NCBI GenBank assembly: GCA_963746845.1 | Contig: CAVVCZ010000006.1 | Location: 1 to 64,000 of the forward strand | Length of the DNA stretch: 64,000 nt | Direction: 5' to 3' | Source: an uncultured Chloroflexia bacterium | GTDB lineage: Bacteria; Chloroflexota; Limnocylindria; Limnocylindrales; CSP1-4 | Part shown: positions 39,572-57,000 of the stretch, piece by piece | How the letters are laid out: the number at the start of each line of letters is the position of its first letter | Position numbering within the stretch: the first letter of the stretch is position 1 | The notes under the pieces: generated by a model | Told to the model about the DNA's origin: nothing | What the model saw: only the letters and a program-made list of their open reading frames with translations | The model's database searches: none | Position numbers and translations under genes: made by a program

Positions 39572-39716
39572 ACTTCACCTCCTTGTCCGACTCGTTGCCT
39601 TTCTCATAGCACGGCGCCGAATGTTGGTCTACCGCGCCAAGTGTTCACTGGCGCTGTGAAAAAATCGGTGCTATGGGAAAGACCAACCCTCTACACCCAA
39701 GCCGAAGGAGTCGCCC

Positions 39717-40380
39717 ATGGAAGCACTCGCGCAAATTGAAAATGGCCGGACGTTGACCGAACTCGAGGCCTACTTCAAAAAATACTCGGACATGCCGCGC
39801 GAGGTGGTGCTCAAGCATGACCTGTTGCGTGACGGCCATTGGTTCACCGATGCGGCGTTGGAGCTGGCGTCGGATGCGTTGGTCAAGTCCTACCGGCTGT
39901 TTTCCTACGATCTGATGCCGATGAAGGACATGAAGCGCAAGGAGCATCGCAAGATCACCGAGTGGTTCATGATGCGCGGCGGGCCCTATGGCTTGCGGCC
40001 GGTGACGGTGCAGACGACTTTGAATTCGGATTCGCCTTACCTGATCGATGCGGTCGATGGCAAGGCGAAGCTGTTTCTTCAAGGTAAGGAAATTTGCGAC
40101 GTGGCGTTTCCGCCGCCGTTGAAATATTACACGCGCAAGTTCGCCGACGGCACGGCCTATCACGAGATCATCGCCTACGGTTACTTCGTCACGGCGTTCC
40201 GCAATTGCCAATATTGGGGGCCGGATGAGGAGTGCCGCTTCTGCGATATCAATATCAATGCCCGGCAGATGAAAGATTCGCAAGACTTCACCTTCAATCC
40301 ACCGGTGAAGCCGCTGGACTACATGGTCGAAGTGGCGCGTTCCATCGAGCAGGACGCCACCGACGAGGTCGGCTACACGA
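39717..40380 (+). CDS. radical SAM protein, truncated shortly after the cluster motif
   Basis: CQYWGPDEECRFC (Cx8Cx2C); TIM-barrel remainder missing. Confidence 0.75.
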
Positions 40381-40740
40381 GGAGCCTTGGACCGCCGTCT
40401 TGAGGCAAGCAATCTCCGATCTTACCGGCTTGAGGCTTCGCATGGAATCAGCGTACCGCCCCGGTCAGCGCGCGGGGAAGGCACACCAGGCGCGATATTT
40501 TGCCCGCCTATGGTTTTTATCCGACAATCACCAACCATGCTCTTTCAAGTGAGTCTGCGATCATCTCGAACGTGATGCGCCATCGTTCCGCCGCCGGCTC
40601 TTTGAGATCGTCGACGGATCTCCGGAAGTCGCGGATAGAATACCGATTCAGCTTGAAGCTTTTTTGGCTGAGGAAGAAGAGGATAAGGAAAACGGCGCCC
40701 AGCCTACTTTACGCAGCCTGATGAGTAATCGAGGGCGTGT
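40381..40740 (+). pseudogene. fragment of a phage/ICE-type hypothetical protein
   Basis: Frame EPWTAVLRQAISDL...ARLWFLSD...SFK*VCDHL with an in-frame TGA and no start codon. Confidence 0.4.
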
Positions 40741-41233
40741 CGTTCGGAAGGTCGTCGATAAAATTTTCCGCTTCACGGTAGAGGATAAACCGATTGAATT
40801 TGCCAGCAACCCACATCATGAGGGCGACAAAGCCCGCCACAATGACAAGTATGGGTGAGTTAGATGTCATGATCCACATCCCGTCGCCGGCTGTCTTGTG
40901 CATCATGCGAACCAGCTCGCGAGACGCTTCGCGTCGAAACCTGTCGGCATTATGCTCGTGACCGCAACTTTGGTTGCGAATCATGAACCAGACAAAAGAA
41001 AGTAGGCTGATGGAGGGGACCACAGCCACGGTTTTGCAAATAAAACCTTCGACTTCGCGGTAGGAATACGACTCGTAATCTTCTTTACGATCGATCGCCA
41101 ACCGGCGCAACTCATCTCTCCGGGCAAACAACCGAAAGCGGACGGAGGTGATGAGCACCGGATGTACGACGTGCCAATAGAACGAGCTGACAATGCAGCA
41201 CGCAAAAAACGTCACAATTAAATGAACTGCCAT
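40709..41233 (-). CDS. hypothetical membrane protein
   Basis: 174-aa ORF with 2-3 hydrophobic segments, 2 bp from the upstream ORF. Confidence 0.7.
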   Translation of the reverse strand: MAVHLIVTFFACCIVSSFYWHVVHPVLITSVRFRLFARRDELRRLAIDRKEDYESYSYREVEGFICKTVAVVPSISLLSFVWFMIRNQSCGHEHNADRFRREASRELVRMMHKTAGDGMWIMTSNSPILVIVAGFVALMMWVAGKFNRFILYREAENFIDDLPNDTPSITHQAA

Positions 41234-41235
41234 CT

Positions 41236-41589
41236 TTATTCCCTCGGTCGCGTGAGCAACTGGATCTGTAGATTATCTCGTTCTTGGGCCACTCTCTTCA
41301 ACTCCTTTTCGTAAAACCGCATCAAAAGTTTAATCAACACAACTCCGGCAATCAGTTCTATGAGTGCCAATATCCAGCCCGTGATCGCCCAACTATTGGA
41401 TTCAACGAGAATCTTGACAATTTGAGGGACGTCTTTGGAGTCCGCTCTGATCATCGCTGTAATAAGAACCAGCCCGACTACGATGATCGAAAGATTTTTC
41501 GAGGTAAGAACCGGTTGTCCAGTGCGCTCGCTGGACTGCATAGGCCTAGCCGGCTGCGGTGTTTCCAAAGCCGTTGAGGCTATGCCCAT
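41236..41589 (-). CDS. hypothetical 2-TM protein with C-terminal coiled coil
   Basis: SIIVVGLVLITAMI and WAITGWILALIELIAGVVLI segments; probable operon with 40709-41233. Confidence 0.7.
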   Translation of the reverse strand: MGIASTALETPQPARPMQSSERTGQPVLTSKNLSIIVVGLVLITAMIRADSKDVPQIVKILVESNSWAITGWILALIELIAGVVLIKLLMRFYEKELKRVAQERDNLQIQLLTRPRE

Positions 41590-41699
41590 AGTACAGGTCC
41601 AGTGCGTAAGTCAACAGATATAAATTCGATGGGGCAATGTCAATGCTCTGTCGCTGCGGGGGCAAGCGTCCGGTCTTGGCCCCGAGATTGAAGTCCCTC

Positions 41700-42242
41700 T
41701 CATGTGGCCGCACGGATGCCCGTCATGCGTTCGCAGAACTCATCTGGTACTTTCGGGGAGGTAGCGACCATAAGGGTCAACATCCCCACAGCAAATAGAT
41801 ATCTGATTCGTGAAGAACTTTCGACCGGCTCGCTCGCCGCCTCGTGGCCGACTCCAGCGTCGACTATCTGGATCGCCGTGCACCAGTCGCTTACCGGCGA
41901 AGAATCGAACGTTGCGTCCCAGATGTGATGTGCAAAGTGATTCCGTACCTTGCGAACCAGGTCCATATCTCGAGCCAGGGGCTCGGTTATAATTCCAAGT
42001 GCCGCCGCTAACGAGATCTTAGCACCGAAAGAGCTTAACGCGCCTTGTCCGACGAACATAGTTTCGAGTCGAGTGCTCGGAATAAGGCAGCTCCGAATCG
42101 CTGCCTCCACAACTGCGTCGAGAAAGCCACCCGCGAGTACCGCCGCGGCGCGATCAGTCTCCTTGTGGAAGCGGCCCACAAACTCATTATAGGAGGAGGC
42201 GTCCAGTGATCGAATATTCGTTGCCTTTGTCATGTCATTCAT
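41700..42242 (-). CDS. MtlR-like / HEPN-superfamily protein
   Basis: ETDRAAAVLAGGFLD, LSSFGAKISLA, RKVRNHFAH (RxxxxH). Confidence 0.75.
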   Translation of the reverse strand: MNDMTKATNIRSLDASSYNEFVGRFHKETDRAAAVLAGGFLDAVVEAAIRSCLIPSTRLETMFVGQGALSSFGAKISLAAALGIITEPLARDMDLVRKVRNHFAHHIWDATFDSSPVSDWCTAIQIVDAGVGHEAASEPVESSSRIRYLFAVGMLTLMVATSPKVPDEFCERMTGIRAAT

Positions 42243-42331
42243 CCGCCCGGCTAATCAACGAACCAGCTCAAGCCATCGGCGCCGGCGTAGTAGGCACAGT
42301 CCCGAATCTTTTGCCCGTGGATCGCAAATTC

Positions 42332-42634
42332 TTATCGCCGCCGATAAGGCGATTTCGTTGTTTCCCGTTCAATAACTCGCTCAGTTTCCTCCCGCTCGCG
42401 CAGAAGTTCAGGGTAACAAGTGTCGACGATCAGCCGGGCGAGCTCCAGACCGATCAACTCGGCTACCTCGCGGTCCTCCAACTCGAAGTTGTGTACGTTC
42501 AGGGTGGTTAGCTCGACCACTGAATTGTCCGGGCGCTGATTCAAAACGCAAGCACCGGGCGTCGAGTTATTGCCGCCGGGATAGCCGGGAGTGGCATCGC
42601 CGGAAATCCAAAGGTCTTTGTATTGTTCCATCAT
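42332..42634 (-). CDS. hypothetical protein
   Basis: 100-aa ORF with protein-like composition. Confidence 0.55.
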   Translation of the reverse strand: MMEQYKDLWISGDATPGYPGGNNSTPGACVLNQRPDNSVVELTTLNVHNFELEDREVAELIGLELARLIVDTCYPELLREREETERVIERETTKSPYRRR

Positions 42635-42681
42635 GGCGCTGGATCTCGAGGCGTTCGTGCTTTTCGTATGCCTGCGCTACA

Positions 42682-42924
42682 TCAACGCGACTCTATTTTG
42701 AACCAGTCGAGCAGACCTATGAGAAGCCTCCGGCCTGTCTGATTGATAAGTGTAAAATACCCGACGATTATAAAAGACGTGATCTTTAGAACGATTCTCA
42801 AAAATCGACTTTTAATCTCGTCGATCAAGCCGTAAACAAGCACAAGAAGAGCGGCGAATACGAATGCAAAAAATTGCCAGCTCTCAGCACCGCGGATAAC
42901 ATCAATAGCGAGCTTTTCTGTCAT
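42682..42924 (-). CDS. small 2-TM hypothetical protein
   Basis: 80 aa, GGAG RBS, preceded by copy 1 of the 29-bp motif. Confidence 0.65.
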   Translation of the reverse strand: MTEKLAIDVIRGAESWQFFAFVFAALLVLVYGLIDEIKSRFLRIVLKITSFIIVGYFTLINQTGRRLLIGLLDWFKIESR

Positions 42925-43042
42925 TCAATGACTCCCTCAGGGCCTTCTACCGCACGGCACAGAGACAAAGCAACCAGAGCAACCGCTACTTGCTTTCTAT
43001 CTCAGACATCGGGTAGAAAATCCAAGTAAGAGACGGATCGCG

Positions 43043-43342
43043 ATGAAACTAAGTCAAAAAACATGGTGGCAACCGAGTTGGCGATATGAAACCGGTAACA
43101 GTGACCCCGTTCCGGCCGCAGTGGCTACCGAATACGGCATCTTGCGAAGGTGCTCGATTGTGGCGGGGAGCTTGATTATGAGTGTCGACTGCAAAGGCAA
43201 ATCCGTTCGCGGCCGTATTGGTCTCTCGGTTAATGCACCACTCTTGGACAGAGTTCTAGTCTTCCTTCGAGCCTACGAAGGCGACTCCATTGAATCAATC
43301 GAAAACCTTGAGATTGAAGAGAACCAGTTCGGTACTCCTTGA
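43043..43342 (+). CDS. hypothetical protein
   Basis: 99-aa ORF preceded by TTGCTT-18 nt-TAGAAA (42990-43019). Confidence 0.6.
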   Translation: MKLSQKTWWQPSWRYETGNSDPVPAAVATEYGILRRCSIVAGSLIMSVDCKGKSVRGRIGLSVNAPLLDRVLVFLRAYEGDSIESIENLEIEENQFGTP

Positions 43343-43360
43343 TTGAAAGATAGACAAGCA

Positions 43361-43386
43361 GGCGCCGAGCCCGAAGACCCGGCGCT
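43361..43386 (-). terminator. UUCG-loop hairpin ending duplicated module, copy A
   Basis: Minus strand gcgccgggtc TTCG ggctcggcgc; paralogs at 44157-44182 and a partial one at ~44681. Confidence 0.65.
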
Positions 43387-43392
43387 ACCAAG

Positions 43393-43611
43393 CTACTTGC
43401 GACGTTTCTTGACGAGTTTCTTCTTTCCGCGGCGCGTAAGGACTTCGAGTTGCTTAGCCCCCATATCCGCTAGGATAGAAGCAAAGGCCTTCGTGATCGG
43501 TGCCAGTAGCACTGCGCAGCCCAGTTTTTTGCTCCCGATCGCCCACTTCAGAAGTTCAATCAAATGACCGTTGAGCTGTACAAGTCGCGCGAGATTCACT
43601 GCGTCGCTCAT
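43393..43611 (-). CDS. 72-aa helical protein with basic tail, paralog A
   Basis: MSDAVNLARLVQLNGHLIELL...RGKKKLVKKRRK; same length as paralog B. Confidence 0.75.
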   Translation of the reverse strand: MSDAVNLARLVQLNGHLIELLKWAIGSKKLGCAVLLAPITKAFASILADMGAKQLEVLTRRGKKKLVKKRRK

Positions 43612-43691
43612 AAAATGGTTCCTTCCGCGCCGTTTCCGGCCAGAACAAAGAGGGCACCAAGGATCGCCAAGACTGAGAGGAAACTCTGCAT
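43608..43691 (-). CDS. 27-aa hydrophobic peptide MQSFLSVLAILGALFVLAGNGAEGTIL
   Basis: GAGAGGTG SD 6 nt before ATG; TGA overlaps the next ATG (ATGA coupling). Confidence 0.6.
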   Translation of the reverse strand: MQSFLSVLAILGALFVLAGNGAEGTIL

Positions 43692-43881
43692 CGTAGTCAC
43701 CTCTCGCGGAGCGTTCTTCTACCGCACGCCACAGAGATAAAGCAACCGGGAGCCTTCTCCTTTTTATGTCAGATTTCTGACACATAAATTATGGACCCGG
43801 ATCGTGGCGCCTCCCAATTTCTAATAGAATTTTACCTCGAAGCCGTTCGCACCGGCGCCGGCATCTGTTACCATTTTCTTT

Positions 43882-43965
43882 GTGAAGTTCTGGCAAATTA
43901 TCGTTTTTATCTTTGGCGTGGTTCTGCCTATTCTTTACATTGTCTATGTTTTGATCTTTGAATAG
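43882..43965 (+). CDS. 27-aa single-TM peptide 1 MKFWQIIVFIFGVVLPILYIVYVLIFE
   Basis: GTG 7 nt after TG-T-TACCAT; two paralogs nearby. Confidence 0.7.
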   Translation: MKFWQIIVFIFGVVLPILYIVYVLIFE

Positions 43966-44067
43966 AAACCGGACGCCGTATAACATGCGCTGCCTTCTAC
44001 CGCACGTCACAGAGATATAACAATTGGGCGCTAGTTGTACCCCCGAGGCAACTGTTACCATTCCTTT

Positions 44068-44151
44068 GTGGATTTCCGAACACTACTCGTAATCCTCTTT
44101 GGAATAGTTCTGCCGGCTCTTTTCATTGCCTTTTACTTGATCAGCCCCTAG
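44068..44151 (+). CDS. 27-aa single-TM peptide 2 MDFRTLLVILFGIVLPALFIAFYLISP
   Basis: GTG 6 nt after TG-T-TACCAT; G12, V14, L15, P16 aligned with peptide 1. Confidence 0.7.
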   Translation: MDFRTLLVILFGIVLPALFIAFYLISP

Positions 44152-44188
44152 AGCAAGGCGCCGAGCCCGAAGACCCGACGCCACCAAG

Positions 44189-44407
44189 CTAATGGCGACG
44201 CTTCTTGACGAGTTTCTTCTTTCCGCGAGGCGTATCAACAGGGAGTTGCTTAGTCGCCATTTCTGCTAGGATCGAAGCAAAGGCCCTCGTGATCGGTGCT
44301 AGTTGCGCTGCGTAGTCTAGTTTGTCGGTCTCCATCGCCCACCTCAGAAGCTCGATCAAATGATCGTTGAGCTGTACAAGTCGCCCGAGATTCACTGCGT
44401 CGCGCAT
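44189..44407 (-). CDS. 72-aa helical protein with basic tail, paralog B
   Basis: MRDAVNLGRLVQLNDHLIELL...RGKKKLVKKRRH. Confidence 0.75.
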   Translation of the reverse strand: MRDAVNLGRLVQLNDHLIELLRWAMETDKLDYAAQLAPITRAFASILAEMATKQLPVDTPRGKKKLVKKRRH

Positions 44408-44595
44408 AACATGGTGTTCCTTCCGCGCCGTTTCCGGCGAAAACAAACAGGGCACCAATGATCGCCAAGACAGAGAATAAACTCTGCATCGTAGTCACGC
44501 CTCAAGGAGCGTTCTTGTACCGCACGTCACAGAGATAAAGCAATCCGGCGCCAGTTGTCCTGGCGCGCTATCCTCTGTTACCATTTTGCTTGATT

Positions 44596-44676
44596 ATGCT
44601 CTCGTCAACTATCGTGATTTTGCTTGGCGCGGTTCTGCCCGTTCTTTTCGTTGTCTATATTTGGTTCTTTGCATAG
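44596..44676 (+). CDS. 26-aa single-TM peptide 3 MLSSTIVILLGAVLPVLFVVYIWFFA
   Basis: Follows TG-T-TACCAT (44576-84), in-frame TTG at 44590; conserved GxVLP. Confidence 0.7.
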   Translation: MLSSTIVILLGAVLPVLFVVYIWFFA

Positions 44677-44799
44677 AGCGGGCGCCGAGCCTAAGCCCGC
44701 GGGTGCGTGAGCCCATGAACTGATTTTAGCTTCCGGATGCCGACAGTCGCGTAAATCTCCTTCGTTGAGATGCTCGCATGACCGAGTAGTTGTTGAATC

Positions 44800-45699
44800 A
44801 CTCGTATATCGGAGCGAACCGCCTTTGTGGCGATCGTTTCGGCTTACCTTGTCGAATCGGTGGTAACCGGCAAGAGTAAGAAGCGCCTGGACGCGCTCGA
44901 AATAAATTTCCGCCGTTTCATCGTTCCCCACTTTGGCGAGAATACCGCAGTCACTGCCATCACTCACACGCAAGTCGAGTATTTCATCAGCGTACAGACC
45001 CAGCGCGGGGTAAAGAATTCGACGGTCTGGCACTATGTCTCGGACCTTCGCGCCTGTTTGAATTACGCCATCAGGAAGGATTGCTGCGAGATAACCCGGT
45101 GAAGCGTGCCGACAAAACCAGAATCATGAACCGCAAGGTGATCAAGCCCCCGCTCGATCCTCATGCCGTCGACCTGGCGGCCGAAGCGATCGCGCACCCC
45201 GTTGACAGGGCTTGGTTTAACGTCGTTCGATTCGTCGGCTTGCGCAAGGATGAAGGCAATCGGCCCGAATGGTCAGACATCAATTTCGAACTGGCAATAC
45301 ATTCGAGGCAGCAAGACCGAAGGGGCCGACGTTTGGTTACCGCTGGCGCCGATCGCGCTGCACACCTTGCGCGAATTGAGAAAGATCAGCGACCCCAAGA
45401 ACCCGCTGATATTCCCGGGAAGGTCGGCACAGAGCAAAGGAAAGAAAGACTACGAGTGCGGCCTGATGTTCAAGAAGATCTTGAAGAAGACCGGCATCAC
45501 GCTTATGCCGAAGGATCTCCGTGATTACTTTTGCAATGAGGTAGCCGCACCCACGCGAGACCCCGCCGTTCTCATGCGCTTGATGCGTCATCAGTCCTTG
45601 GAAACAACGACAAAGTACCTGCGCACCGTACCGGAACGCATGGAGGATGCTGTCAAGAATCTGGGGCGAGCTTTGGTGGTGGATTCGATTCAAATCTAG
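44800..45699 (+). mobile_element. tyrosine recombinase/integrase, N-terminally truncated and frameshifted
   Basis: SAM-like domain then GLRKDE (R), GSKT (K), PKDLR, RH, TTTKY across three frames. Confidence 0.85.
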
Positions 45700-45758
45700 T
45701 GCAGAAAGCGACGGAAAACGACAATGCGCCAGAAAATATTGTTGCATTGAATGAGGGT

Positions 45759-47276
45759 TCAACTACGCGAAATAGTTCGGTGAATGTGGACGGCATTGGG
45801 ACCAGTCAAGACGCTATCGACATGCCACATGGCCAGGCAATCGTCTTGGTTGTAGATCAGCGCGCGGTCGATGGCGAACAGGTCGGTGTTTTCCAGATAA
45901 TCCCAGTAGCAGACCATGGACTGATAGGCGCCGATGTCTTTCTGGCGCCAGTGAAAGCCCAGGGCGGGGGCGACGGATTTGATCGAGAAGGTCGGCACGG
46001 GCAGGTAGACGGCGGCCTGAATCGCTGCTTTCAAGTCGACGCATTTGGCGACGATCTGTTCGATCGAAGCGGACAGCAGTGGCCAGCGGCGGGCGACGCG
46101 GTGCATCTGGTGAATTTCAAAGTCGGTCCAGTGATACAAGCAAACATCGCGCGGGTCGCCGACATAGTCGAAGAACTCGGTGAAGATGCGCGCTTCATCG
46201 GCCGCGCCACGGGCGAGAAACTTGACGAATTGATCGCGGCTGCCGTCGTAACAGCCGATGAGATAGGTGTGCGGCGGCTCGCTCGGATGGATTGCATCGG
46301 AAGTTTCGAAATCGAAATAGAGCAGACGCTTGGCGCGCGGGATATCGAGCTCGCGGCCGGGCCGCAAAAGCGGGCCACCGAATTTGTAGGCCTGGCTGAC
46401 ATGGTGCGCGATCTCGCCATAATGTTCGCCGATTATTTCCACGAGTTCTTCCTGCCGCAGGTTCCATGCTTGATCGACTCTGTGAATTCCGGCGCGGCGC
46501 AGCTTGTCGCGTTCGCGCTTGGTGAGGCCGGCCAACAAGATCAGGTCGCGCTCGTCGCTGGCGCGCTGGTTGGCGTAGAGGCGCCAAGGCGAACTCGCTG
46601 CGTTGGGTGGACGATTCATTTCGGGGATGACGCTGCCGTTTCGCAATTCATTCCAAAACTGGCGCGCTGCGACAACCTCTTCGGCTTTTTCGGAAAAGGC
46701 AACAGTTGTTTCGCTGTCTTTGAGAACGATGGTGAACTCGTCGGGCACGAGGCCCTGAAGCTTGCCGATGTTTTCATTGTAGAAAGCGCCTTGGAGCGCG
46801 TGGGAAGCTTGCAGAGACTGCGATCTTTTGATTTCGATGACGCGGTAGTGAAATGGCCCGAGATCCGACGGTGCCGAATCGTCGCGAATCAGTAAGTCGC
46901 CTTTTCCGTAGATCGTCTGCGCTAAATCCCACAGCTGGGGTTGATAAATTGCCCGCGGGCCGGCGAGCAGGGCGCGGCAAGTATTTTTCAGCGCCTCGAA
47001 CCCGAAGCCCGGTGTGATTTCCATGGCATCGGGATAGTTGCTTTTAACCCAGCGCCGCTCGTAGTCGACGCCCTGCTGCATGCGCAGTCTTTCATAGCGC
47101 GTGGTTTCATCGACGGCGGCACTTTTCGGCGCATGATGTTCGCACCAGAGCCAGAAGGGATCTTTGAGCAGGTAGTAGCTGTGCGAGGGGCGAAAAAGGT
47201 TGTGGCGGTTGAATTTCTGCCCGGCGGTGGCGCGCTGGATCAATGCCTCAAGGGTGACTTTTGCCGTTGTCGTCAT
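45759..47276 (-). CDS. TM0106-family RecB-like nuclease with C-terminal RNase H-like domain
   Basis: GKGDLL...YRVIEIK (PD-D/ExK), YFDFET, FSIKSVAPALGF, YNQDDC. Confidence 0.85.
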   Translation of the reverse strand: MTTTAKVTLEALIQRATAGQKFNRHNLFRPSHSYYLLKDPFWLWCEHHAPKSAAVDETTRYERLRMQQGVDYERRWVKSNYPDAMEITPGFGFEALKNTCRALLAGPRAIYQPQLWDLAQTIYGKGDLLIRDDSAPSDLGPFHYRVIEIKRSQSLQASHALQGAFYNENIGKLQGLVPDEFTIVLKDSETTVAFSEKAEEVVAARQFWNELRNGSVIPEMNRPPNAASSPWRLYANQRASDERDLILLAGLTKRERDKLRRAGIHRVDQAWNLRQEELVEIIGEHYGEIAHHVSQAYKFGGPLLRPGRELDIPRAKRLLYFDFETSDAIHPSEPPHTYLIGCYDGSRDQFVKFLARGAADEARIFTEFFDYVGDPRDVCLYHWTDFEIHQMHRVARRWPLLSASIEQIVAKCVDLKAAIQAAVYLPVPTFSIKSVAPALGFHWRQKDIGAYQSMVCYWDYLENTDLFAIDRALIYNQDDCLAMWHVDSVLTGPNAVHIHRTISRS

Positions 47277-48030
47277 TCGACTATCCACCCGCCAACAGAT
47301 ATCTGCTCACGATTGGAAAAATTTATCGGCGGCGTCGATATGGACCCAATGGCCGGTGTTGGCGGACGACCAGGCCATTCGGGAAGCGCTCGCGGATTTC
47401 CGGAATGTTTGTCATGGGCAATGAAATTTGACCGGCCCGCTCGAATGAAGCAAGTTTGGCTAGAGACGGCGCCATCGGCGCTGAACGCTTCAGTAAGCGC
47501 ATCATAATTTGCGATAATCTCTTCCAAGCCGATGCGCCAATGGAATCATGCATCCGTACCGCAGGCGAGATTGGCAATCAAGAACTGGCGTAGCGTCGGT
47601 TCCGGAATGTTTCCTGTGTGCGCCCGGTCGGCGTCGCTGGAGGTCTACCCGCTTGCGAGCGTAAGCGCCTCTAGGCGGCAGCGGGCTTATGCGCGGCGGG
47701 CTTCGGGCGCGATGTCGACTACGACTAGCCCATTGATGGAACTGGCGTTGACCGCGGCGCATTGCCGGGCCACCTTGCCGACCATGGAGTGGCCGCATAG
47801 ATGGGCACGATCGAGTTCTCGCGGCAAAAAATTCTCTCACATCCTTCGCCATGGCGCATGATGCGTCACCGGATGATGCGCTGAGGCGCCGTGATTTCTC
47901 AAATCTAAATCATAGACTTTGAAGTAGACAGCGAGCCGCTTGACGATGGCGCGCCAATTGTCGGTCGCGCCGAGAAAGCCTGCAGGGTGATCCTCGGGAC
48001 ACCGATCCCTTGGACTTGGAAGTTGAGACG
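47273..48030 (-). pseudogene. degraded YbfF-like alpha/beta esterase
   Basis: Fragments GFLGATDNWR, LDLRNHGAS, MAKDV, GHSMVGKVA, VVVDIAP, FIRAGRSNFI in several frames. Confidence 0.7.
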
Positions 48031-50099: not shown

Positions 50100-51007
50100 T
50101 GATCCCGCAATCTCAAACCGCCACGCCGCCAAAGAATCTATCCATCGCCGAAGAGCGGGCGATCCTTTCGGTGACCTGTCTGGCGGCGTTTCTATTCTTC
50201 AACAGTTTTGGCAGCATCAGCGTCGCCCTACCGGCGATTCAGAAACAATTTGGCAATAGTTTGTCGGAGATTCAGTGGGTCACGCTGATGGGCGTGGTGA
50301 CGATCTCCAGCTTGTCGTTCTGTTTCGGCCGTGCCGGCGGTATTCTCGGCCAGCGCCGGCTCTACAAGATCGGTGTGGCGCTTTATGCCGCCGGCGCCGG
50401 CTTGGGCGCGCTGGCGCTGTCGTTTCCACAGCTGCTGATCGCGCGCGCGGTGATGGCGGTTGGGCTGGCGATGGCGTTGCCGATGTCGACGGCGTTGTTG
50501 GCCGGCAGTTTCGCCGCCGCGCGGCGCGGCCAGGTGCTGGGCACCTTCGCCTCGGCTATCGCCGTCGGGCGCATGTCTGGGCCGACCGTCGGCGGCTTGC
50601 TCTTACAAATGGGCGGCTGGACCTGGATCTTCTGGATGAATTTTGTCGTCGGCTTGGCGGTGACGTTGGCGGTGGTGAAAATTTTTCGCGGCGCCGGCGA
50701 GCAACGGCCGGAGAAATTCGACATCTGGGGCTCGTTGGCCTTACTGCTTGGCTATCCGTCGCTGTTGATCGGCTTGAGTTTTGGCGCCCGCCTCGGTTGG
50801 AGTTCGTTGCCGGTGATCCTGTGCTTTGCCGTCGCCACGATTGGGCTGGTGGGTTTCGTCGGCATCGAACTGCGCACCGCGAAGCCGTTGGTCGATGTGG
50901 CGATTTTTCGCAATAAAATGCTGTCCGCGGCTATCGTCGCGCTGATCCTCAGTCATATGCTCCACAATCCGATCGCCTTGGCGGCGCCGCTTTATTTGCA
51001 AAACGTG
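50100..51007 (+). CDS. DHA2/EmrB-like MFS transporter, truncated at junction
   Basis: VALPAIQKQF, GILGQRR, GPTVGGLL, WIFWMN; stops after PLYLQNV. Confidence 0.85.
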
Positions 51008-51219
51008 AAGAGGTCGAGCGGGCGGCCTCCGAGACGGGCGATCAAGTCGTCGATGACCGGCTCGAAGACGGCGTCGACACCACCTGCCTTGCTCAGCGCA
51101 TTGCCGAAGTCGAACAGGATCGTCCGTTCGATCGGCTGGCCGTTCTCGGTATCCGGGATCGAGACAAGGATCGCGTCGCCGAAGCGCACGTCGTAGGCCC
51201 GGACGATCAGCTCGCTCAT
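51008..51219 (-). CDS. N-terminus of ComEC/Rec2-like MBL-fold hydrolase, truncated at junction
   Basis: YDVRFGDAILV, ILFDFG, RPLDLF then cut just before the expected THxHxDH. Confidence 0.7.
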
Positions 51220-52982
51220 TCGTCCAGGTCCGATACGACGTGGAGGAGCCGGGCCGTCTGCTTGACCCGGAGGATCCCGCTCGTGGCGACGGCGTCGATG
51301 CCGGACGCGGTTCGTTCGCCGTGAGCCCGGACCTCGGGCTCGGTGATCTCGACGATCCCCCGGCCGACGAGGTCGTCCAGCATCGCGTCGCGGGCGGCCC
51401 GGCGCCCCGCGAAGTCGAGCGGCCGCTGGAGCGCCCGGATCCGCTTCGCATTCGAGTCGATGACGAGGGTGGTGCCGGTCTGGACCCGGCGCCGCGGCGG
51501 ATCGAAGCCGCGTGGGTTGTCCTCGACCTGGCTCCAGCGGACCTTGAACAGCAGCTCACGGAACGGCGTTCCCGCCTCCTCGGCGGCGGCGGCATCGGCC
51601 GGCGGCTCGTCGTCGTCGTCGGGGGCGCCGGCGGCGGCCGCGGGCGGCGCCGGGGCCTGGCCGGCATGTGCTGCCGTCTCGTCGGGGCTCTGGACCCGAC
51701 CATCGACCACGACGCGCTTCAGCACCTCGAACTCCGCGTCATCGGGGATCTCGAGCAGGTCGCGATTGACGTCCGCGAACTTGTACGCGACCCAGTCGCT
51801 GTCCGCGAGTCCCTGGAGGTCCGCGGCGGCGACTGCCGGGTGGTCGATGTTCACCCTGACGTCGAGGGCTGACGCGTCGGCGACGATCCGGCGCGCGACG
51901 AACTTCGTCCGGAGTTTCTGGCCCCACTGCCGATCCCCCGGTGACGCCTCGTCGGCCGCGAGGATCGCCCGCCCGAAGTCCGCGAACGTGACCTCGCCCG
52001 GCGGCAGGTAGTCGAGTCCTCGGAGGACCATCCGTCGGAAGAGGCCTGCCGCGACGGCAAGCGCGAGTCCGGACGCCTTGAACCGGTCGCCACCGAACCG
52101 GCCCGCGTACTCGTCCTTGAAGGACTCGTGCATCTCGACGATCAGCTCGTACAGGACGCCGCTGATCACCTCGCTCAGCGCGTGCGGCTCGATCTCCTCG
52201 TTCTTCGGATCGATCTTCGCGTCGTTCTTCAGGTTCCGGAGATAGCCGGGCCTCCGCCCGCCGGCGATCGCGTCGCCGAACTGCTCGCCGATCGAGCTGA
52301 ACGCGTTCGACTTGTCGATCCGGCCGCCCGTCGCGTCGAGGATCGCGTGGGTCAGGCGACTGCTGTCGAACGCGATCAGCATCGCGGTCAAGTCGGCGAT
52401 CCCCTCGTGGAGCGCGAGCCCCTGTGGGTCGAGGGCGTCGTAGAGGTCCGGATCGATCCCGTCGATCAGGGCATGGGCCGTCTCGTGGGAGACGATGTCC
52501 CGCGAGAGGCTCGTGTAGATGGTCTTGCCGTCGGCATCGAACGAGAAGAACTGGAGGCTGTGCGAGGCTCGCTCGTAGTAGGCGTTCTCCATCCAGCCGG
52601 CGCGCGGGACGAGGAGGAGCTGCGGGGCATCGAACCCCCAATGGATCTCCCGGCCGAGGGTGCGCTTCTCCTCGAACAGCTTGATCGTCCGCCAGACGGT
52701 CGCGAACGCGCTGACCGCGATGAACGGCGGCGACTCGATATCGTCGCGATCGACGGTGTACCGGCCCAGCGTGCGCCCACCGGATGGCGGCTCGAACGGG
52801 ACCGGGTCGAGCAGGGTTTCGCTGTCGGGGTCGAGGTCGACGACGGCGAGCCGCGGCGTGATCGGGCCGGCGAGGAAGTGGTCCTGTTCCAGGCCCTTCC
52901 AGTCCTCGACCATCCGGCCCACCGCGGTCTCGGCGATCTCCGGGTCCTGGATCATCATCGGCAGCCGGGCGCGGGTCGCCAT
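51216..52982 (-). CDS. gluzincin (M4/M36-like) metallopeptidase
   Basis: ENAYY, SHETAH (HExxH), ALHEGIAD, EPH. Confidence 0.85.
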   Translation of the reverse strand: MATRARLPMMIQDPEIAETAVGRMVEDWKGLEQDHFLAGPITPRLAVVDLDPDSETLLDPVPFEPPSGGRTLGRYTVDRDDIESPPFIAVSAFATVWRTIKLFEEKRTLGREIHWGFDAPQLLLVPRAGWMENAYYERASHSLQFFSFDADGKTIYTSLSRDIVSHETAHALIDGIDPDLYDALDPQGLALHEGIADLTAMLIAFDSSRLTHAILDATGGRIDKSNAFSSIGEQFGDAIAGGRRPGYLRNLKNDAKIDPKNEEIEPHALSEVISGVLYELIVEMHESFKDEYAGRFGGDRFKASGLALAVAAGLFRRMVLRGLDYLPPGEVTFADFGRAILAADEASPGDRQWGQKLRTKFVARRIVADASALDVRVNIDHPAVAAADLQGLADSDWVAYKFADVNRDLLEIPDDAEFEVLKRVVVDGRVQSPDETAAHAGQAPAPPAAAAGAPDDDDEPPADAAAAEEAGTPFRELLFKVRWSQVEDNPRGFDPPRRRVQTGTTLVIDSNAKRIRALQRPLDFAGRRAARDAMLDDLVGRGIVEITEPEVRAHGERTASGIDAVATSGILRVKQTARLLHVVSDLDE

Positions 52983-52986
52983 CGTG

Positions 52987-53925
52987 TCAGCCCGCAGCCG
53001 CAGCGATGGCCTGGGCGATCAGCGGGATCTTCAGGTAGCCCGTCAGTTCGTGGTTGTTCCGGGCCTGGTTGTTGACCGACTCGTCATGCGCGAAGTTCGG
53101 CGGCGGCGTGAACTCGTCACGCAGCGTGTGCTCGAGCGCGACCGGGTCGAACGGATCCGAGTAGTTCGACCAGGCGCCGATCTGCGGGGGAACCGGGTTG
53201 GGTCGACCGGCGCTGTCGCGGATCAGCTTCTGGACGTTGCCGATCCCCAGGGGGCAGCCGACCGTGAACAGGATGTCGACCTTGAGGCCAGCGAGGTCCG
53301 GCTGGTTGAGGACGTCGTAGGTGATGATCGTGCCGAGGCTGTGGGCGACGACGACCTTCGGCGCCGGGCTCGCGAGGAGCGCCTTGCGCACCGGCTCGCG
53401 CATCGCCTGCTTGAACGGCCCGTACAGGTAGTCGAGCACGTCGCTGGCGAACTTCCCGACGACGAACCGGAAGATCGGGTCGGGGAACGTGACGTTCAAC
53501 GCGGTGCCGCGACGGGGCGGCCGCGGCGAGCGATCCGCGATCCGGTCGGCCTCCCGGAAGAGCTCCTCGACCAGCGCGGTCGCGCTGTCCCGGTCCTTGG
53601 CGGAGATCGTGGTCGCGGCCGCCCCTCGACCGCCTCCGGCGGATGGCGCCAGCGTCGCGGCGACGATCCGGGAGGCCGCGACATCGGCACTGAGGTCGGG
53701 CGCCATGGCCGCACGGATGGCCCGCGTGCGTCGCTGCTTGTTCGCGCCAGCTGCCGCGGCCGCCCCACCGCCCGACGCGGCCGGCCACCGGACGTTCGCG
53801 TAGTAGCCGACACGCGTGGATGGCATGTCCCGGCCGAAGATCAGCGTGTCGGCGTCGCGCTTGAACTCCTTGACCGGCGCCTGTGGCCCGGCGCCGTGGA
53901 CGTAGACGAGCGGCAAAGGCGGCAC
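52987..53925 (-). CDS. alpha/beta-hydrolase-fold protein
   Basis: VYVHG, AHSLGT, TVGCPLG, WSNYSDPFDPVA, NNH; GGAGG RBS before GTG. Confidence 0.8.
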   Translation of the reverse strand: MPPLPLVYVHGAGPQAPVKEFKRDADTLIFGRDMPSTRVGYYANVRWPAASGGGAAAAAGANKQRRTRAIRAAMAPDLSADVAASRIVAATLAPSAGGGRGAAATTISAKDRDSATALVEELFREADRIADRSPRPPRRGTALNVTFPDPIFRFVVGKFASDVLDYLYGPFKQAMREPVRKALLASPAPKVVVAHSLGTIITYDVLNQPDLAGLKVDILFTVGCPLGIGNVQKLIRDSAGRPNPVPPQIGAWSNYSDPFDPVALEHTLRDEFTPPPNFAHDESVNNQARNNHELTGYLKIPLIAQAIAAAAG

Positions 53926-54028
53926 CGGGGAACCTCCGAGCTTCGTTGGATGCGTCGGGCACTCGCCCCTCGATCGCACGCCGACGCTATCGGACCACCG
54001 TCGCGCCGGCGTCGTGCGCCGCGCTCGA

Positions 54029-57000
54029 CTACGCCAGGAGCGCGTCCGCCTCCGCGAGATCGGGCGTCGAAGCGCCCTCGGTGATGCCGGCGCGGACCGC
54101 CCGGAGGGCGTCCAGCCGGCCCCGACGGTCCGGCTCCGGTGCGACCTGGCAGCGTCGGACGGCAGCCCGAAGCTGCGGCATCCGCGCCCCGAAGCGCTCC
54201 GCCATCGCGAACGCATGCTCGTACGACGCCATCGCGGCCGCGACATCGGGGTCCGGCCCCACGAGCAACAGGTCGCCGCGGACGACGTGGAAGAGCGGCG
54301 CGATCGGGTTGGTCGGTCCGCCCAGGTCGATCGCCTCGCCGATCAGCGGCAACCCCTGGCCGGGCAGGCCCGCCTCGACGTGCGCCCCTCCCTGGATGAA
54401 CCGAAGAAACGGCCAGAAGATCGGCGGCGTTCGGAGATCCTGATACTGGTCGAGGCCGTCCGCGATCTGGTGGAGACCCTCCGTCGGCCGGCCGAGCGCG
54501 CTCGTTGCCGCGCCGAGCAGGCACGTCCCGAGCGCACGCCAGATCGGCAGGTCACTCGCCTCGGCGACTCGCAGCGCCGCGGTTGCGCGCGCCGCGACGA
54601 GGTCCGGCTCGCGGCGCCACAGATGCAGGAACCCGGAGTGGAACAGCCCGTACGCCAGCGAGTACGGGTGGTCGAGCTCGGTCGCGACCACGATCGAGCG
54701 GTCGGCCCGTTCGACGGCCCGATCGGGGTGGCCCAGGAGCCAGAGGAAGAACCCCGACGTCGTCAGGCACGACACCCGCACGTCCAGCCCGAGCCGGTAC
54801 CGCCGGGGCCGGTAGGCGGGGCTCTCGAACCCCCCGATCGCCTGGTCGAGGTACCGCAGACCTCCCTCGAGATCGCCGGCGAACCCGGTGTCGGCGCCGA
54901 GGATGAAGTTGCCGTCGACCCGCATGCTCGGGTCGTTCTCGGCATCGGCCAGCTGCAGGATCTGATTCGCGTACCCGATGCCCTTGTCGACCTCCCCGCG
55001 GAACCCATGGAAGCTCGCGAGGCTGCGCAGGACCGGGAAGAGCAGCGGGACGTCGGGGTGGTCCTGGAGCAGTGCCAGCGCCTCGACGTAGGCGTCCTCG
55101 GCCTCGCCGGTGTAGCCGCGCAGCAGCGTGAGCGCCCGGGCGAGGCTCGTCCGGAGCGTCAGCTCCTCCTGCCAGTGATCGGACCGGTCGGGCATCGCCG
55201 TCAGGACGCCGAGCATGTCGCGGATCGCTTCGACGGTCGCGTGGTACCAGCCTCGTCCGTCGTAGAAGGGCCACATCGCGCCCTTGAGCTCTTTCAGTCC
55301 ATCGAGATCGCGCTCCGCCACCCGGTGGCCCCACGCGATCCGGAGGTTGTCGATCTCGAGCGCCACGGCATCGCTGGAACCGGCACGCTCGGCGTCGCCG
55401 GTCGTTCGGGCGATGTCTGTCGCGTACTGCACGAAGAAGCGTGCGTGGTGGTCTCGCGCCGAGGTGGCGAACGCGGGGCGCGCATCGAGCCGCTCCGCCG
55501 CGTACTCGCGGATCGTCTCGAGCATGACGATCCGCGGCTCGCCGTCGGTGGCGGTCGTGTCGGCCTGCCGGACAAGGCTCTTGTCCAGCAGGGAGCCGAG
55601 ACCTTCGAGCGCGTTGAGCTCGACACCGGCGTCCTCGTCGAGCCCGGCCGCCACCGCCTCCACCGCTTCGACCGACGCGCCGGCAAAGACCGACAGCAGC
55701 TCGAGCAGCCGTTGCTCGGCCGGCTCCAGGAGCAGGTAGCTCCACTCGATCGTCGCCCGGAGCGTCTGCTGCCGTTCCGGGAGGTCGCGCGCTCCGCCGG
55801 CCAGCATCTTCAGCCGGCTTCCGAGCCGGTCGCGGAGCGCCTCGGGCGAGAAGAGGTTCAGCCGGGCGGTGGCGAGCTCGATCGCGAGCGGCAGCCCGTC
55901 GAGCCGGCGGCAGATCTCGAGGACGGCGGCCGCGTTGTCGTCGGTGAGATGGAAGTCGGACCGGACGGCCCGTGCCCGCTCGACGAAGAGCTGGATCGCC
56001 TCGAACTGCGTGAGCTCCGCCGCCGTCGTCGCGTGGCCCGCCGCGGCCGGGAGCGACAGCGGCGGCACGGACACGACGTTCTCCCCCCGCACCCGGAGGG
56101 CCTGGCGGCTCGTGACGAGCAGCTTCAGGCCGGGACAGTCGGCGAGGAGGTCGATGAGGACGGGCGCCGCGACGGCGACCTGCTCGAAGTTGTCCAGGAC
56201 GAGCAGCACACGCTGGGAGCGCAGCTGGCGGCGGAGCTCGTCGAGCGGCGCGCGATTGGTCGTGTCGGCGAGACCAACGGCGACCGCGACGAGGGCGACG
56301 ACGCCGTCCGCGTCGCTCGCGGTGACGAGGTTCACGAAGAAGACGCCGTCGGTGAACCGGTCGATCTGGTCGGCGGCTGCCCGGAGGGCGAGGCGGGTCT
56401 TGCCCGTCCCGCCGGGTCCCGTCAGGGTGACGAGCCGGACGCCGGCGTCATCGAGGCGCTCGCGGATGACGCGCAGCTCGGCGTCGCGACCGATGAACGC
56501 CGACGACTCCGTCGGCAGGTTGTTCGGCCGGCGATCGAGCGTGGCGAGCGGCGGGAACTCGGCGGGCAGGTCCGGATGGGTCAGCTGGAAGAGGCGCTCG
56601 GGCCGGCCGAGATCCTTCAACCGATGCTCGCCGAGATCTCGAAGCGCGACGCTTCCCGGAAGGTCACCGTCGAGGAGCGCGGCGGCCGAGCCCGACAGCA
56701 GGACCTGGCCGCCGTGACCGACCGCCATGATCCGCGCGGTCCGGTTGACGGCCGGACCGAAGAAGTCCCCGCCTCGCGACTCCGCCTCGCCGGTGTGGAT
56801 CCCCATCCGGACGCGGATCGGGCAGGAGCTCGGCCACGTCTCCGCGAACAACGCCCCCTGGGCGGCGATCGCCGCCGTCACGGCACCGATCGGGGCGTCG
56901 AACACGGCCATCAGGCCGTCGCCGGTCGTCTTGACGACGTCGCCGTTCGAGCCCTCGATCGCTGACCGGATCAGGACCTCGTGCCGGGCCAGTGCGGCCT

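What the first reader, a model, noticed from the sequence alone, without database searches (positions are those of the whole stretch)
43866..44676. Hidden family of three leaderless 26-27-aa transmembrane peptides
These are below the ORF-track cutoff: MKFWQIIVFIFGVVLPILYIVYVLIFE, MDFRTLLVILFGIVLPALFIAFYLISP and MLSSTIVILLGAVLPVLFVVYIWFFA. The DNA has diverged considerably, yet length, hydrophobicity, the GxVLP core and the TAG stop are kept, which suggests selection on the peptide. Each follows an identical CTGTTACCATT extended -10 by 5-7 nt (to GTG/GTG/TTG) with no SD. Size and context resemble type I toxins or phage exclusion/regulatory microproteins, but I recognise no family.
Basis: partly seen in the sequence, partly recalled or inferred. 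Interest (0 to 1): 0.8.

Follow-up and report, generated by a model that had tools for sequence, protein, structure and literature searches.

The report
Leaderless membrane micropeptide genes on island
Three tiny genes for 26-27-residue membrane-spanning peptides, each starting right at its own promoter, are real members of a rare unnamed family carried on mobile DNA islands of soil bacteria; what the peptides do is not known.

Summary
Three paralogous 26-27-codon ORFs (43882-43965, 44068-44151, 44596-44676, + strand) each lie 5-7 nt after a TGn-TACCAT extended -10 inside CTGTTACCATT. That 11-mer occurs only three times in the 3.56-Mb genome.

They belong to a wider family. I found 19 DNA copies (16 intact) in this genome, two other MAGs and six metagenome contigs, plus six over-called database proteins. 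No Pfam, NCBIfam, PHROGs, PADLOC or PDB family matches.

Coding is well supported:
- T occupies 56-70% of second codon positions in all 16 copies analysed.
- In the P2 subfamily, variable sites by codon position are 11/2/14, with 27 synonymous and 22 nonsynonymous changes (p = 2.5e-5; six sequences were found by a peptide search).
- Four pairs found without that search give pN/pS 0.52 (p = 0.046).
- The three window paralogs alone show no purifying signal.

A -10-like hexamer 5-7 nt before the start is kept in 13 of 17 copies, and none of the 17 has an SD. This supports leaderless translation.

The genes sit in a recombining bidirectional-promoter module on a ~6-kb low-GC island with decayed integrases.

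Function is inferred only: type-I-toxin-like (about 0.35) or an exclusion/regulatory micropeptide (about 0.3). No antitoxin RNA was found.

The parts
43865..43875 (+). CTGTTACCATT: TGn extended -10 plus TACCAT (43869-43874) for P1
43882..43965 (+). P1, GTG start, 27 aa, TAG stop; single transmembrane helix
   Evidence: a 94%-identical copy lies in L038
44052..44062 (+). CTGTTACCATT promoter element for P2; part of the imperfect palindrome GGCAAC-T-GTTACC
44068..44151 (+). P2, GTG start, 27 aa, TAG stop; the best-sampled subfamily (9 DNA copies, 8 unique CDS)
44575..44585 (+). CTGTTACCATT promoter element for P3
44590..44676 (+). P3, TTG at 44590 (28 aa) or ATG at 44596 (26 aa), TAG stop
   Evidence: the relative in L040 starts at the codon between these two
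43716..43760 (-). D4 repeat: conserved promoter-like region reading leftwards into the module A cargo genes, back to back with the peptide promoter
   Evidence: the same motif lies upstream of unrelated genes in L079, L082, L085 and L087
43994..44038 (-). D4 repeat copy B without cargo; it lies 29 nt after the P1 stop and points antisense into P1
   Evidence: the same arrangement follows the P1-like copy in L038
44514..44558 (-). D4 repeat of module C
42944..42975 (-). Fourth D4 copy, upstream of the 80-aa membrane-protein gene 42682..42924; no peptide gene beside it
44153..44183 (.). D6 repeat: GC-rich hairpin (GGCGCCG, 12 nt, CGACGCC) directly after the P2 stop and directly after the convergent 72-aa gene
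   Evidence: hairpin read from the sequences; compensated variant in L042b
44677..44705 (.). D6 repeat after P3, abutting the stop of a XerC/D-like gene fragment
43357..43385 (.). D6 repeat at the 3' end of module A cargo
43393..43700 (-). Module A cargo: a 27-30-aa signal-peptide-like ORF (43608..43700) overlapping by ATGA a 72-aa basic protein (43393..43611); SD GAGAGGTGA
44189..44498 (-). Module C cargo: paralogue of the 72-aa protein (72% identical) plus the same N-terminal hydrophobic ORF, here without its own stop
44691..45699 (.). Decayed tyrosine recombinases: XerC/D-like C-terminal fragment (44691..44801, minus strand) and a frameshifted integrase (44827..45102 and 45163..45699, plus strand)
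39600..45800 (.). Low-GC island absent from the two closest relatives with synteny (L059, L066)

Best explanation
Shown: P1, P2 and P3 are genuine protein-coding micro-genes of a rare, unnamed family. Each encodes one transmembrane helix of 26-31 residues. It has a short polar N-terminus, an invariant G12 and L15 and a nearly invariant P16 (14 of 15 aligned copies) in mid-helix, and an aromatic-rich C-terminus.

Each gene sits 5-7 nt after an extended -10 promoter and has no Shine-Dalgarno sequence. The mRNA should therefore begin at, or within a few bases of, the GUG/AUG and be translated as a leaderless message. This step is inferred from conserved architecture.

The gene is one half of a roughly 180-330-bp bidirectional-promoter module (D4 + TGTTAYC + peptide + GC hairpin). 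The module recurs between variable small cargo genes on integrase-associated islands and recombines at its repeats.

Inferred function: the peptide inserts into the inner membrane and acts as a growth-inhibiting, type-I-toxin-like effector that favours retention of the island or array. Output would be held low by weak GUG leaderless initiation and by convergent or antisense transcription: from the D4 copy behind P1, and from the cargo operon that shares the hairpin behind P2.

My confidence that the genes are coding is about 0.85. My confidence in leaderless expression is about 0.65. My confidence in the toxin-like role is about 0.35, and that is the figure given below.
For: Coding:
- T occupies 56-70% of second codon positions but only 19-33% of first and 22-48% of third positions in all 16 copies analysed.
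- The core, codons 7-22, aligns without gaps in all 16. Upstream DNA carries a 1-nt indel between P2 and L054.
- In the P2 subfamily (8 unique CDS), variable sites by codon position are 11/2/14.
- Parsimony on the same set gives 27 synonymous and 22 nonsynonymous changes against a neutral synonymous share of 0.267, p = 2.5e-5. pN/pS is 0.30 in the sense frame and 0.55-3.72 in the other five frames.
- All 21 amino-acid replacements there are swaps among L/F/I/V/A, or G/S and P/S; the 22nd nonsynonymous change creates the early stop in L058.
- Four pairs found without the peptide-pattern search give pN/pS 0.52, p = 0.046.
- Antisense frame 0 carries stops in 7 of 16 copies.
- Soil contigs show 5 indels in the 1461-nt stretch, and none lies in the three ORFs.

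Leaderless architecture:
- TANNNT lies 5-7 nt before the start in 13 of 17 copies, against 152 of 6291 (2.4%) for all ATG/GTG in the same loci.
- That includes the unrelated hexamers TAGTAT (L049) and TAGTGT (L006a).
- None of the 17 copies has an SD-like motif.

Toxin-like role, by analogy:
- The peptides are extremely hydrophobic (GRAVY 1.9-2.3).
- AlphaFold2 predicts a single helix, residues 5-30, at pLDDT 90.
- Three tandem diverged copies lie within 800 nt.
- The island context includes integrases, an excisionase-type HTH_17 gene, an Imm_superinfect gene and PADLOC 1TM/2TM-TIR hits.
- Decayed copies exist, the distribution is narrow and patchy, and a hairpin is shared with a convergent transcription unit.
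- These features match those used to find type I toxins (PMC2887945, passages) and described for Fst/Ldr, including the GUG start and I/L/V interchangeability (PMC7472228, passages).
Against: - No antitoxin RNA was identified.
- Complementarity between the peptide mRNA 5' ends and the cargo transcripts is at chance level: best scores 6-9 against shuffle maxima 8-11.
- The peptide mRNA is not unusually structured (z = -0.75), unlike typical type I toxin mRNAs.
- There is no charged C-terminal tail.
- An extended -10 promoter with no visible repression would be risky for a toxin.
- The P1/L038 and P3/L040a pairs give pN/pS 1.10 and 1.20, on 5 and 8 changes.
- The window paralogs give dN/dS 0.70-2.93.
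- Six of the nine P2-type sequences were found by a search that requires conserved peptide words. This inflates the apparent purifying selection.
- In two copies (L042a, L040b) the A of the hexamer is replaced (TTCCAT), and L056 has TACGAG.
- No transcription start or translation data exist.
Confidence: 0.35

Rival explanations
1. The peptide is a non-toxic membrane micropeptide of the island. It would bind a host or incoming-phage membrane component through its GxxLP helix face. That would make it an exclusion or immunity factor, or a small regulator in the manner of single-helix modulators of transporters and sensors.
For: - G12 and L15 are invariant, and P16 is kept in 14 of 15 aligned copies, on one helix face across all subfamilies. 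This suggests specific helix packing rather than generic membrane damage.
- The promoter looks constitutive and no antitoxin was found.
- Neighbours include an Imm_superinfect gene (L048/L057) and PADLOC 1TM/2TM-TIR-like genes in the window island.
- One subfamily (31 aa) sits next to the same malonyl-CoA decarboxylase gene in two MAGs, which looks like an ordinary chromosomal gene.
Against: - No partner gene is consistently linked; the neighbours differ from locus to locus.
- Multi-copy tandem paralogs and decayed copies are less usual for dedicated regulators.
- Selection is weak in two subfamilies.
Confidence: 0.3
2. The ORF is a cis-acting leaderless short ORF. What matters is the act of translating it. 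A ribosome stopping at the stop codon would cover the 5' arm of the hairpin that begins 6-8 nt later. This would set read-through into the downstream gene or into the convergent cargo operon.
For: - A hairpin follows the stop codon directly in the D6-type copies, with a compensated variant in L042b.
- In L056 an HTH_17 gene starts 13 nt after the peptide stop, so there the peptide gene is the first cistron.
- Leaderless short ORFs acting as attenuators are described in mycobacteria (10.1101/834739, abstract in the search listing only).
Against: - An attenuator needs particular codons, not a conserved hydrophobic helix with an invariant G and L and a nearly invariant P.
- Second codon positions are the most conserved.
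- Most copies have no downstream gene on the same strand.
- The hairpin is missing or different in about half of the copies.
Confidence: 0.12
3. The DNA is a non-coding repeat: a promoter or recombination module of the island. The ORF would be an accident of T-rich sequence.
For: - The ORF lies inside a repeat that recombines. Contigs show deletion and duplication joints at the repeats, for example 43715 to 43994, and 44155 back to 43360.
- The window paralogs show no purifying signal.
- Some copies are broken: the L049 frameshift, truncated L006b, the L084 fragment and the P0006 stop-loss form.
- Part of the comparative sample is biased by the peptide-pattern search.
Against: - Three-base periodicity is present in all 16 copies.
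- The sense frame has the lowest pN/pS of the six frames.
- There is a synonymous excess.
- Length is conserved at 26-31 codons with a gapless core, while the flanks carry indels.
- The start codon is kept at a fixed distance from several different -10 hexamers.
- There is no attC-like fold (z = -0.93), no Rfam match and no integron integrase.
Confidence: 0.1

Closest known systems
Fst/Ldr superfamily of type I toxins (par of pAD1, ldr-rdl long direct repeats of E. coli)
   Same: - Both are roughly 30-residue single-helix peptides.
- Both have an essential-looking glycine/proline pair in mid-helix.
- I/L/V are interchangeable in both.
- Fst uses a GUG start.
- Both have a hairpin shared with a convergent transcript.
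- Both occur in tandem diverged copies and on mobile elements.
(PMC7472228 and PMC2887945, passages read.)
   Different: - The motif order is GxxxP here, not PxxxG.
- There is no conserved Trp followed by a highly charged C-terminus.
- No Pfam toxin model matches.
- There is no SD or structured 5' UTR to sequester; the genes look leaderless.
- No antitoxin RNA or direct-repeat complementarity was found.
Ibs-Sib and Zor-Orz (Z3289/Z3290) tandem type I toxin loci of E. coli
   Same: Both have very short, wholly hydrophobic peptides (Ibs 19 aa is recalled; Z3289/Z3290 at 29 aa is). In both, the genes are repeated in tandem in one intergenic region with similarity that extends beyond the ORF.
   Different: Those loci have mapped antisense or divergent sRNAs and leadered mRNAs, and none is known here. 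There is no sequence similarity. Here the repeats also carry a second, outward-facing promoter that drives variable cargo genes.
Leaderless short ORFs of mycobacteria
   Same: In both, the transcript begins with AUG or GUG and a short ORF is the first element (10.1101/834739, abstract in the listing only).
   Different: Those described act through codon content as attenuators. Here the peptide sequence itself is constrained as a membrane helix. The host is a deltaproteobacterium-labelled or Binatia-like soil MAG, not an actinobacterium.
Small single-helix membrane proteins of enterobacteria (YohP, YoaK and YncL type)
   Same: Size and hydrophobicity are similar. The nearest protein-atlas clusters by features are of this kind.
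   Different: Atlas scores are 0.78-0.82, which is chance level by the tool's own calibration. Those genes are single-copy chromosomal genes with SD sequences (recalled).

Membership tests
Type I toxin-antitoxin system (generic, criteria of Fozo et al. 2010, PMC2887945) | Toxin under 60 aa, highly hydrophobic, with a predicted transmembrane segment | tested here: met
   26-31 aa; GRAVY 1.91-2.34; AlphaFold2 single helix 5-30, pLDDT 90
Type I toxin-antitoxin system (generic, criteria of Fozo et al. 2010, PMC2887945) | Tandem repetition in one region | tested here: met
   Three copies within 43866-44676, inside tandem modules
Type I toxin-antitoxin system (generic, criteria of Fozo et al. 2010, PMC2887945) | Cluster of charged and bulky residues at the C-terminus | tested here: inconclusive
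   Aromatic F/Y/W residues are common in the last 9 residues, but a charged residue occurs only in P1/L038 (a final E)
Type I toxin-antitoxin system (generic, criteria of Fozo et al. 2010, PMC2887945) | Antisense or partly complementary sRNA that represses the toxin mRNA | tested here: inconclusive
   There is no complementarity above chance to neighbouring minus-strand transcripts. A promoter-like D4 copy points antisense into P1 and into its L038 relative. No RNA data were available.
Type I toxin-antitoxin system (generic, criteria of Fozo et al. 2010, PMC2887945) | Growth arrest or membrane damage on overexpression | not testable with these tools
   This needs an experiment
Fst/Ldr superfamily | [quoted passage not shown] | tested here: not met
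   There is no charged tail, and the motif is G12-x-x-L15-P16
Fst/Ldr superfamily | Match to the Pfam toxin models | tested here: not met
   No toxin family was listed at E up to 10 for P1, P2 and P3. Only chance rows appeared (TCR_zetazeta 0.24, TMIE 1.4).
Leaderless gene | A -10 element 5-8 nt upstream of the start codon, and no SD | tested here: met
   13 of 17 copies have TANNNT at 5-7 nt, against 2.4% of all ATG/GTG in the same loci. None of the 17 has an SD-like motif.
Leaderless gene | Mapped transcription start at the start codon | not testable with these tools
   No RNA run was available to lay on the stretch
Integron cassette array (attC sites) | Integron integrase beside the array | tested here: not met
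   Only generic tyrosine-recombinase matches far below the curated cut-offs (25.9 bits against 220), and these are decayed genes
Integron cassette array (attC sites) | Imperfect-palindrome attC hairpin between cassettes | tested here: not met
   The single-stranded DNA fold of 43990-44185 has z = -0.93. No inverted repeat was found within the module.

The most novel reading that the evidence does not exclude
The peptide genes and the cargo operons form an interlocked addiction array. Each leaderless GUG-initiated membrane toxin would be silenced only by transcription arriving from the neighbouring cassette, across a shared hairpin or from the D4 promoter behind it. Loss of a neighbouring cassette would then unleash the toxin. 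This would be a type-I-like system with no dedicated antitoxin gene and no ribosome-binding site to mask, one that stabilises a new kind of promoter-bearing cassette array on integrase islands.
Probability: 0.1. Interest if true: 0.75.

Novelty: new variant of a known kind. Interest (0 to 1): 0.5.

Why it matters
Genes this short are missed by gene callers. In the 1.84-billion-protein library the family appears only as the tail of six over-called ORFs.

The finding gives a clean, testable example of a conserved leaderless, GUG-started micro-gene outside the phyla where leaderless translation is best known. It sits in a compact bidirectional-promoter module that shuffles cargo genes on soil-bacterial islands.

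If the peptide proves toxic, it would be a type-I-like toxin controlled without an SD or a 5' UTR. If it does not, it adds an island-borne membrane micropeptide with an invariant G and L and a nearly invariant P (GxxLP face) whose partner can be sought.

Either way the biological pay-off is moderate. New small membrane-protein families are common in metagenomes.

Tried and rejected
- Rfam scan of 40000-48000 at E up to 1: no match.
- Pfam, NCBIfam, PADLOC and PHROGs on the peptides: nothing beyond chance. Examples are PsbK at E 0.042 and 14.1 bits against a cut-off of 66, and TCR_zetazeta at 0.24.
- PDB profile search: PsbM at E 1.4, which is chance.
- Protein atlas: scores 0.78-0.82 for the 31-aa member and no usable hit for the 72-aa cargo protein.
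- DNA search of 40 relatives: no match.
- Profile search of 401 genomes of the class: only the own genome is significant. The next best hit (E 0.0085, L008) lies inside a longer ORF and is unrelated. That tally includes the unpublished genomes G323 and G126, which had only chance-level rows.
- Viral contigs, two scans: none.
- Genome-contig scan with the A5 alignment: only the MAG already known.
- The search for homologous proteins cannot take queries under 40 aa, and the first peptide alignment was too variable for the search for related loci.
- No RNA holder was listed among the sequencing runs, so expression could not be examined.
- Homo-oligomer prediction with four copies: no verdict, score 0.16 against a mark of 0.42.
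- A par-like direct-repeat pairing was considered and not found. A first script for this timed out.
- Integron/attC reading: rejected.
- Antisense-strand coding: rejected. There are stops in 7 of 16 copies and pN/pS is 0.55-1.47.
- An upstream in-frame extension as the true start: rejected, because a 1-nt indel separates P2 and L054 upstream of the GTG.
- Literature: searches listed no paper whose title or abstract describes a leaderless type I toxin or this family. '2TM-1TM-TIR' found no paper.
- Supplementary tables of PMC2887945 (candidate toxin lists) could not be seen and might hold similar peptides.
Full report
**1. The observation**

The three ORFs are present as described. P1 is 43882..43965 (GTG, 27 aa). 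P2 is 44068..44151 (GTG, 27 aa). P3 is 44596..44676 (ATG, 26 aa), or 28 aa from the TTG at 44590. All three end in TAG.

The 11-mer CTGTTACCATT is exact at 43865, 44052 and 44575. Allowing one mismatch, the window holds 4 matches against 0.26 expected, and 0 of 100 shuffles reached 4. The whole 3.56-Mb assembly holds exactly these 3 copies.

Read as TGn + TACCAT, the hexamer ends 7, 6 and 5 nt before GTG, GTG and TTG. No SD-like motif precedes any start.

**2. Local anatomy**

The ORFs are not isolated. They lie in a tandem module of about 797 bp. The segments 43360-43754 and 44156-44552 are 86-88% identical, whereas the 93-nt peptide repeat is only 65-74% identical. Each module has four parts:
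- A conserved 45-nt element, D4 (43716, 43994, 44514; a fourth copy at 42944). On the minus strand it reads like a promoter region.
- On the minus strand, an SD and ATG, a 27-30-aa signal-peptide-like ORF, and a 72-aa basic protein that overlaps it by ATGA. The two copies of the 72-aa protein are 72% identical and match no family.
- On the plus strand, the TGTTACCAT element and the peptide gene.
- A GC-rich repeat, D6, directly after the stop. In several copies it can form a 6-7-bp hairpin. I read this from the sequences, and L042b has a different but equally paired stem.

Module B has lost its cargo. Its D4 copy therefore lies 29 nt after the P1 stop and points antisense into P1.

Two decayed tyrosine recombinases follow P3.

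The segment at 41-45 kb has 50-53% GC, against mostly 55-62% in the 30-50-kb flanks. The two closest relatives with synteny, L059 and L066, lack window ~39.6-45.8 kb beside the conserved RecB-like nuclease gene. The genes therefore sit on a ~6-kb island at an insertion hotspot.

The nearest named relatives are MAGs titled delta proteobacterium, Syntrophobacter sp. SbD2 and Candidatus Binatia.

**3. The family elsewhere**

The 72-aa cargo protein and a 100-aa cargo protein of the island led to related islands in two MAGs of about 6.5 Mb. A profile of the peptides then found further copies there. A peptide-pattern scan of metagenome contigs found six more. A nucleotide search of the three genomes added one fragment.

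In all there are 19 DNA copies:
- 3 in the window.
- 6 in G423: L006a, L038, L040a and L040b are intact. L049 has a 1-nt deletion near the 3' end that extends it to 51 aa. L006b is truncated at 15 aa.
- 4 in G424: L042a, L042b and L048 are intact. L084 is a fragment with no start.
- 6 on metagenome contigs, all intact. The L057 coding sequence is identical to that of L048.

So 16 of 19 copies are intact at 26-31 codons.

A full HMMER pass over 1.84 billion representative proteins returned 6 hits at E ≤ 0.001:
- Four carry the peptide as the C-terminal tail of an over-called ORF.
- P0004 is a frameshift-type form, like L049.
- P0006 is an 88-aa stop-loss form that starts with the peptide.

No copy was found in the following:
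- 40 relatives searched by DNA.
- 400 other genomes of the class. That tally includes the unpublished G323 and G126, which gave only chance-level rows. The best outside hit was checked and is unrelated.
- Viral contigs.

No Pfam, NCBIfam, PADLOC, PHROGs or PDB family matches.

**4. Is it coding?**

The window copies alone say little. Their dN/dS values are 0.70, 2.93 and 0.74.

The wider sample is informative:
- All 16 copies analysed keep three-base periodicity. T is at 56-70% of second codon positions, 19-33% of first and 22-48% of third.
- The core aligns without gaps. The flanks carry indels: a 1-nt indel between P2 and L054 just upstream of the GTG, and 5 indels in soil contigs, all outside the ORFs.
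- In the P2 subfamily (9 copies, 8 unique CDS), variable sites by codon position are 11, 2 and 14.
- Parsimony on a tree of that subfamily gives 27 synonymous and 22 nonsynonymous changes against a neutral synonymous share of 0.267 (binomial p = 2.5e-5).
- pN/pS is 0.30 in the sense frame against 0.55-3.72 in the other five frames.
- All 21 amino-acid replacements there are swaps among L/F/I/V/A, or G/S and P/S. The 22nd nonsynonymous change creates the early stop in L058.

There is a caveat. Six of those nine sequences were found by a search that demands conserved peptide words, which biases towards low pN/pS.

Restricting the test to four independent pairs found without that search gives a weaker result:

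| Pair | pN/pS |
|---|---|
| P1/L038 | 1.10 |
| P2/L048 | 0.28 |
| P3/L040a | 1.20 |
| L042a/L040b | 0.59 |
| All four | 0.52 (14 synonymous, 21 nonsynonymous; p = 0.046) |

The opposite strand is not the coding one. Its matching frame has stops in 7 of 16 copies.

I put coding at about 0.85. Constraint acts mainly on hydrophobicity and on G12, L15 and P16.

**5. Leaderless expression (inferred)**

TANNNT lies 5-7 nt before the start codon in 13 of 17 copies. The control rate is 152 of 6291 (2.4%) for all ATG/GTG in the same loci.

The property holds even where the hexamer is unrelated: TAGTAT in L049 and TGC-TAGTGT in L006a. This argues that the spacing itself is selected.

The bases between hexamer and start are pyrimidine-rich, so the first purine at the usual start distance is the G or A of the start codon. 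This is read from the sequences.

The four exceptions are:
- L056, with TACGAG.
- L042a and L040b, with TTCCAT.
- L040a, whose promoter was replaced by a truncated integrase ORF beside a tRNA gene.

None of the 17 copies has an SD-like motif, whereas the neighbouring cargo genes do have one. No RNA data could be obtained.

**6. What the peptide is**

AlphaFold2 with the 15-row alignment gives one helix, residues 5-30, at pLDDT 90. GRAVY is 1.9-2.3. The N-terminus carries the only charges in most members, which suggests N-in topology by the positive-inside rule. That step is inference.

**7. Mechanism**

The features that match type I toxins are:
- Size and extreme hydrophobicity.
- Tandem diverged copies.
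- Location on mobile elements.
- Narrow distribution, with some copies decaying.
- A GUG start.
- A mid-helix Gly/Pro pair, and free I/L/V exchange.
- A hairpin shared with a convergent transcription unit.

The criteria and the Fst/Ldr features come from passages of PMC2887945 and PMC7472228.

The defining element is missing. No antisense RNA is known. The 5' ends of the peptide mRNAs show no complementarity above chance to the cargo transcripts. The mRNA is not unusually folded. There is no charged tail.

I therefore commit to a toxin-like, island-retention role at only about 0.35. Three rivals follow:
- A non-toxic exclusion or regulatory micropeptide, at about 0.3. It is favoured by the invariant helix face, the apparently constitutive promoter, and Imm_superinfect and 1TM/2TM-TIR-like neighbours.
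- A cis-acting leaderless ORF that controls the hairpin, at about 0.12.
- A non-coding repeat, at about 0.1.

Membership in Fst/Ldr, or in any named family, is not supported. An integron/attC reading is rejected.

**8. Verdict**

The functional label remains open.

Novelty: a new variant of a known kind, namely island-borne single-helix micropeptides resembling type I toxins. It is distinguished by the conserved leaderless architecture and by its place in a bidirectional-promoter cassette module. Interest is 0.5.

Noticed in passing
window 40709-41589 (minus strand): Two adjacent island genes, of 117 aa and 174 aa, match the PADLOC models 2TM-TIR (E 1.1e-12) and 1TM-TIR (E 1.6e-11). These are the membrane components of a candidate defence system. 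No TIR protein was recognised beside them.
   Followed up: partly
window 43608-43700 and 44410-44498 (minus strand); L056 820-1173: The 27-30-aa hydrophobic ORF ahead of the 72-aa cargo gene has the same N-terminus as a 117-aa ORF in a metagenome contig. It looks like a Sec signal peptide kept together with the D4 promoter and SD, that is, a reusable expression/secretion head for swapped cargo.
   Followed up: partly
window 43393-43611 and 44189-44407 (minus strand): A 72-aa protein with a strongly basic C-terminal tail is present in two copies (72% identical). It matches no family in Pfam, NCBIfam, PADLOC, PHROGs or the atlas. A degraded copy lies in L006.
   Followed up: partly
window 43748-43865: Module A carries about 100 extra bases between D4 and the peptide promoter. 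They include a terminator-like hairpin plus T run (43748-43770, + strand) and a palindrome, TGTCAGA-TTT-CTGACA.
   Followed up: no
window 43300-44760 in soil-labelled run contigs X1-X4: Contigs show structural variants at the repeats: a deletion 43715 to 43994 that removes P1, skips 43748 to 44047 and 44015 to 44152, and a 796-bp tandem-duplication joint. The module therefore recombines in nature.
   Followed up: partly
window 42332-42634 (minus strand); L037-L042: A 100-aa protein of unknown family occurs at 5 loci in one MAG and 1 locus in another, at 70-90% identity. It is a recurrent cargo of these islands.
   Followed up: partly
L040 371-466 and L042 7657-7752: A 31-aa subfamily ending in TAA sits divergently beside a malonyl-CoA decarboxylase gene in both large MAGs. 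Its promoter motif is changed to TTCCAT.
   Followed up: partly
L040 5460-6040: A tRNA gene is followed by a truncated P4-type integrase ORF whose stop codon directly abuts the ATG of a P3-like peptide gene. This suggests a recombination junction at the start of the peptide gene.
   Followed up: no
window 51000-56000: GC content rises to 68-73% here, against 55-63% nearer the island. I did not examine this.
   Followed up: no
window 44046-44058 and P2-type loci: The promoter motif is the right half of an imperfect palindrome, GGCAAC-T-GTTACC. It is kept, with small changes, in most P2-type copies and could be an operator overlapping the -10.
   Followed up: no
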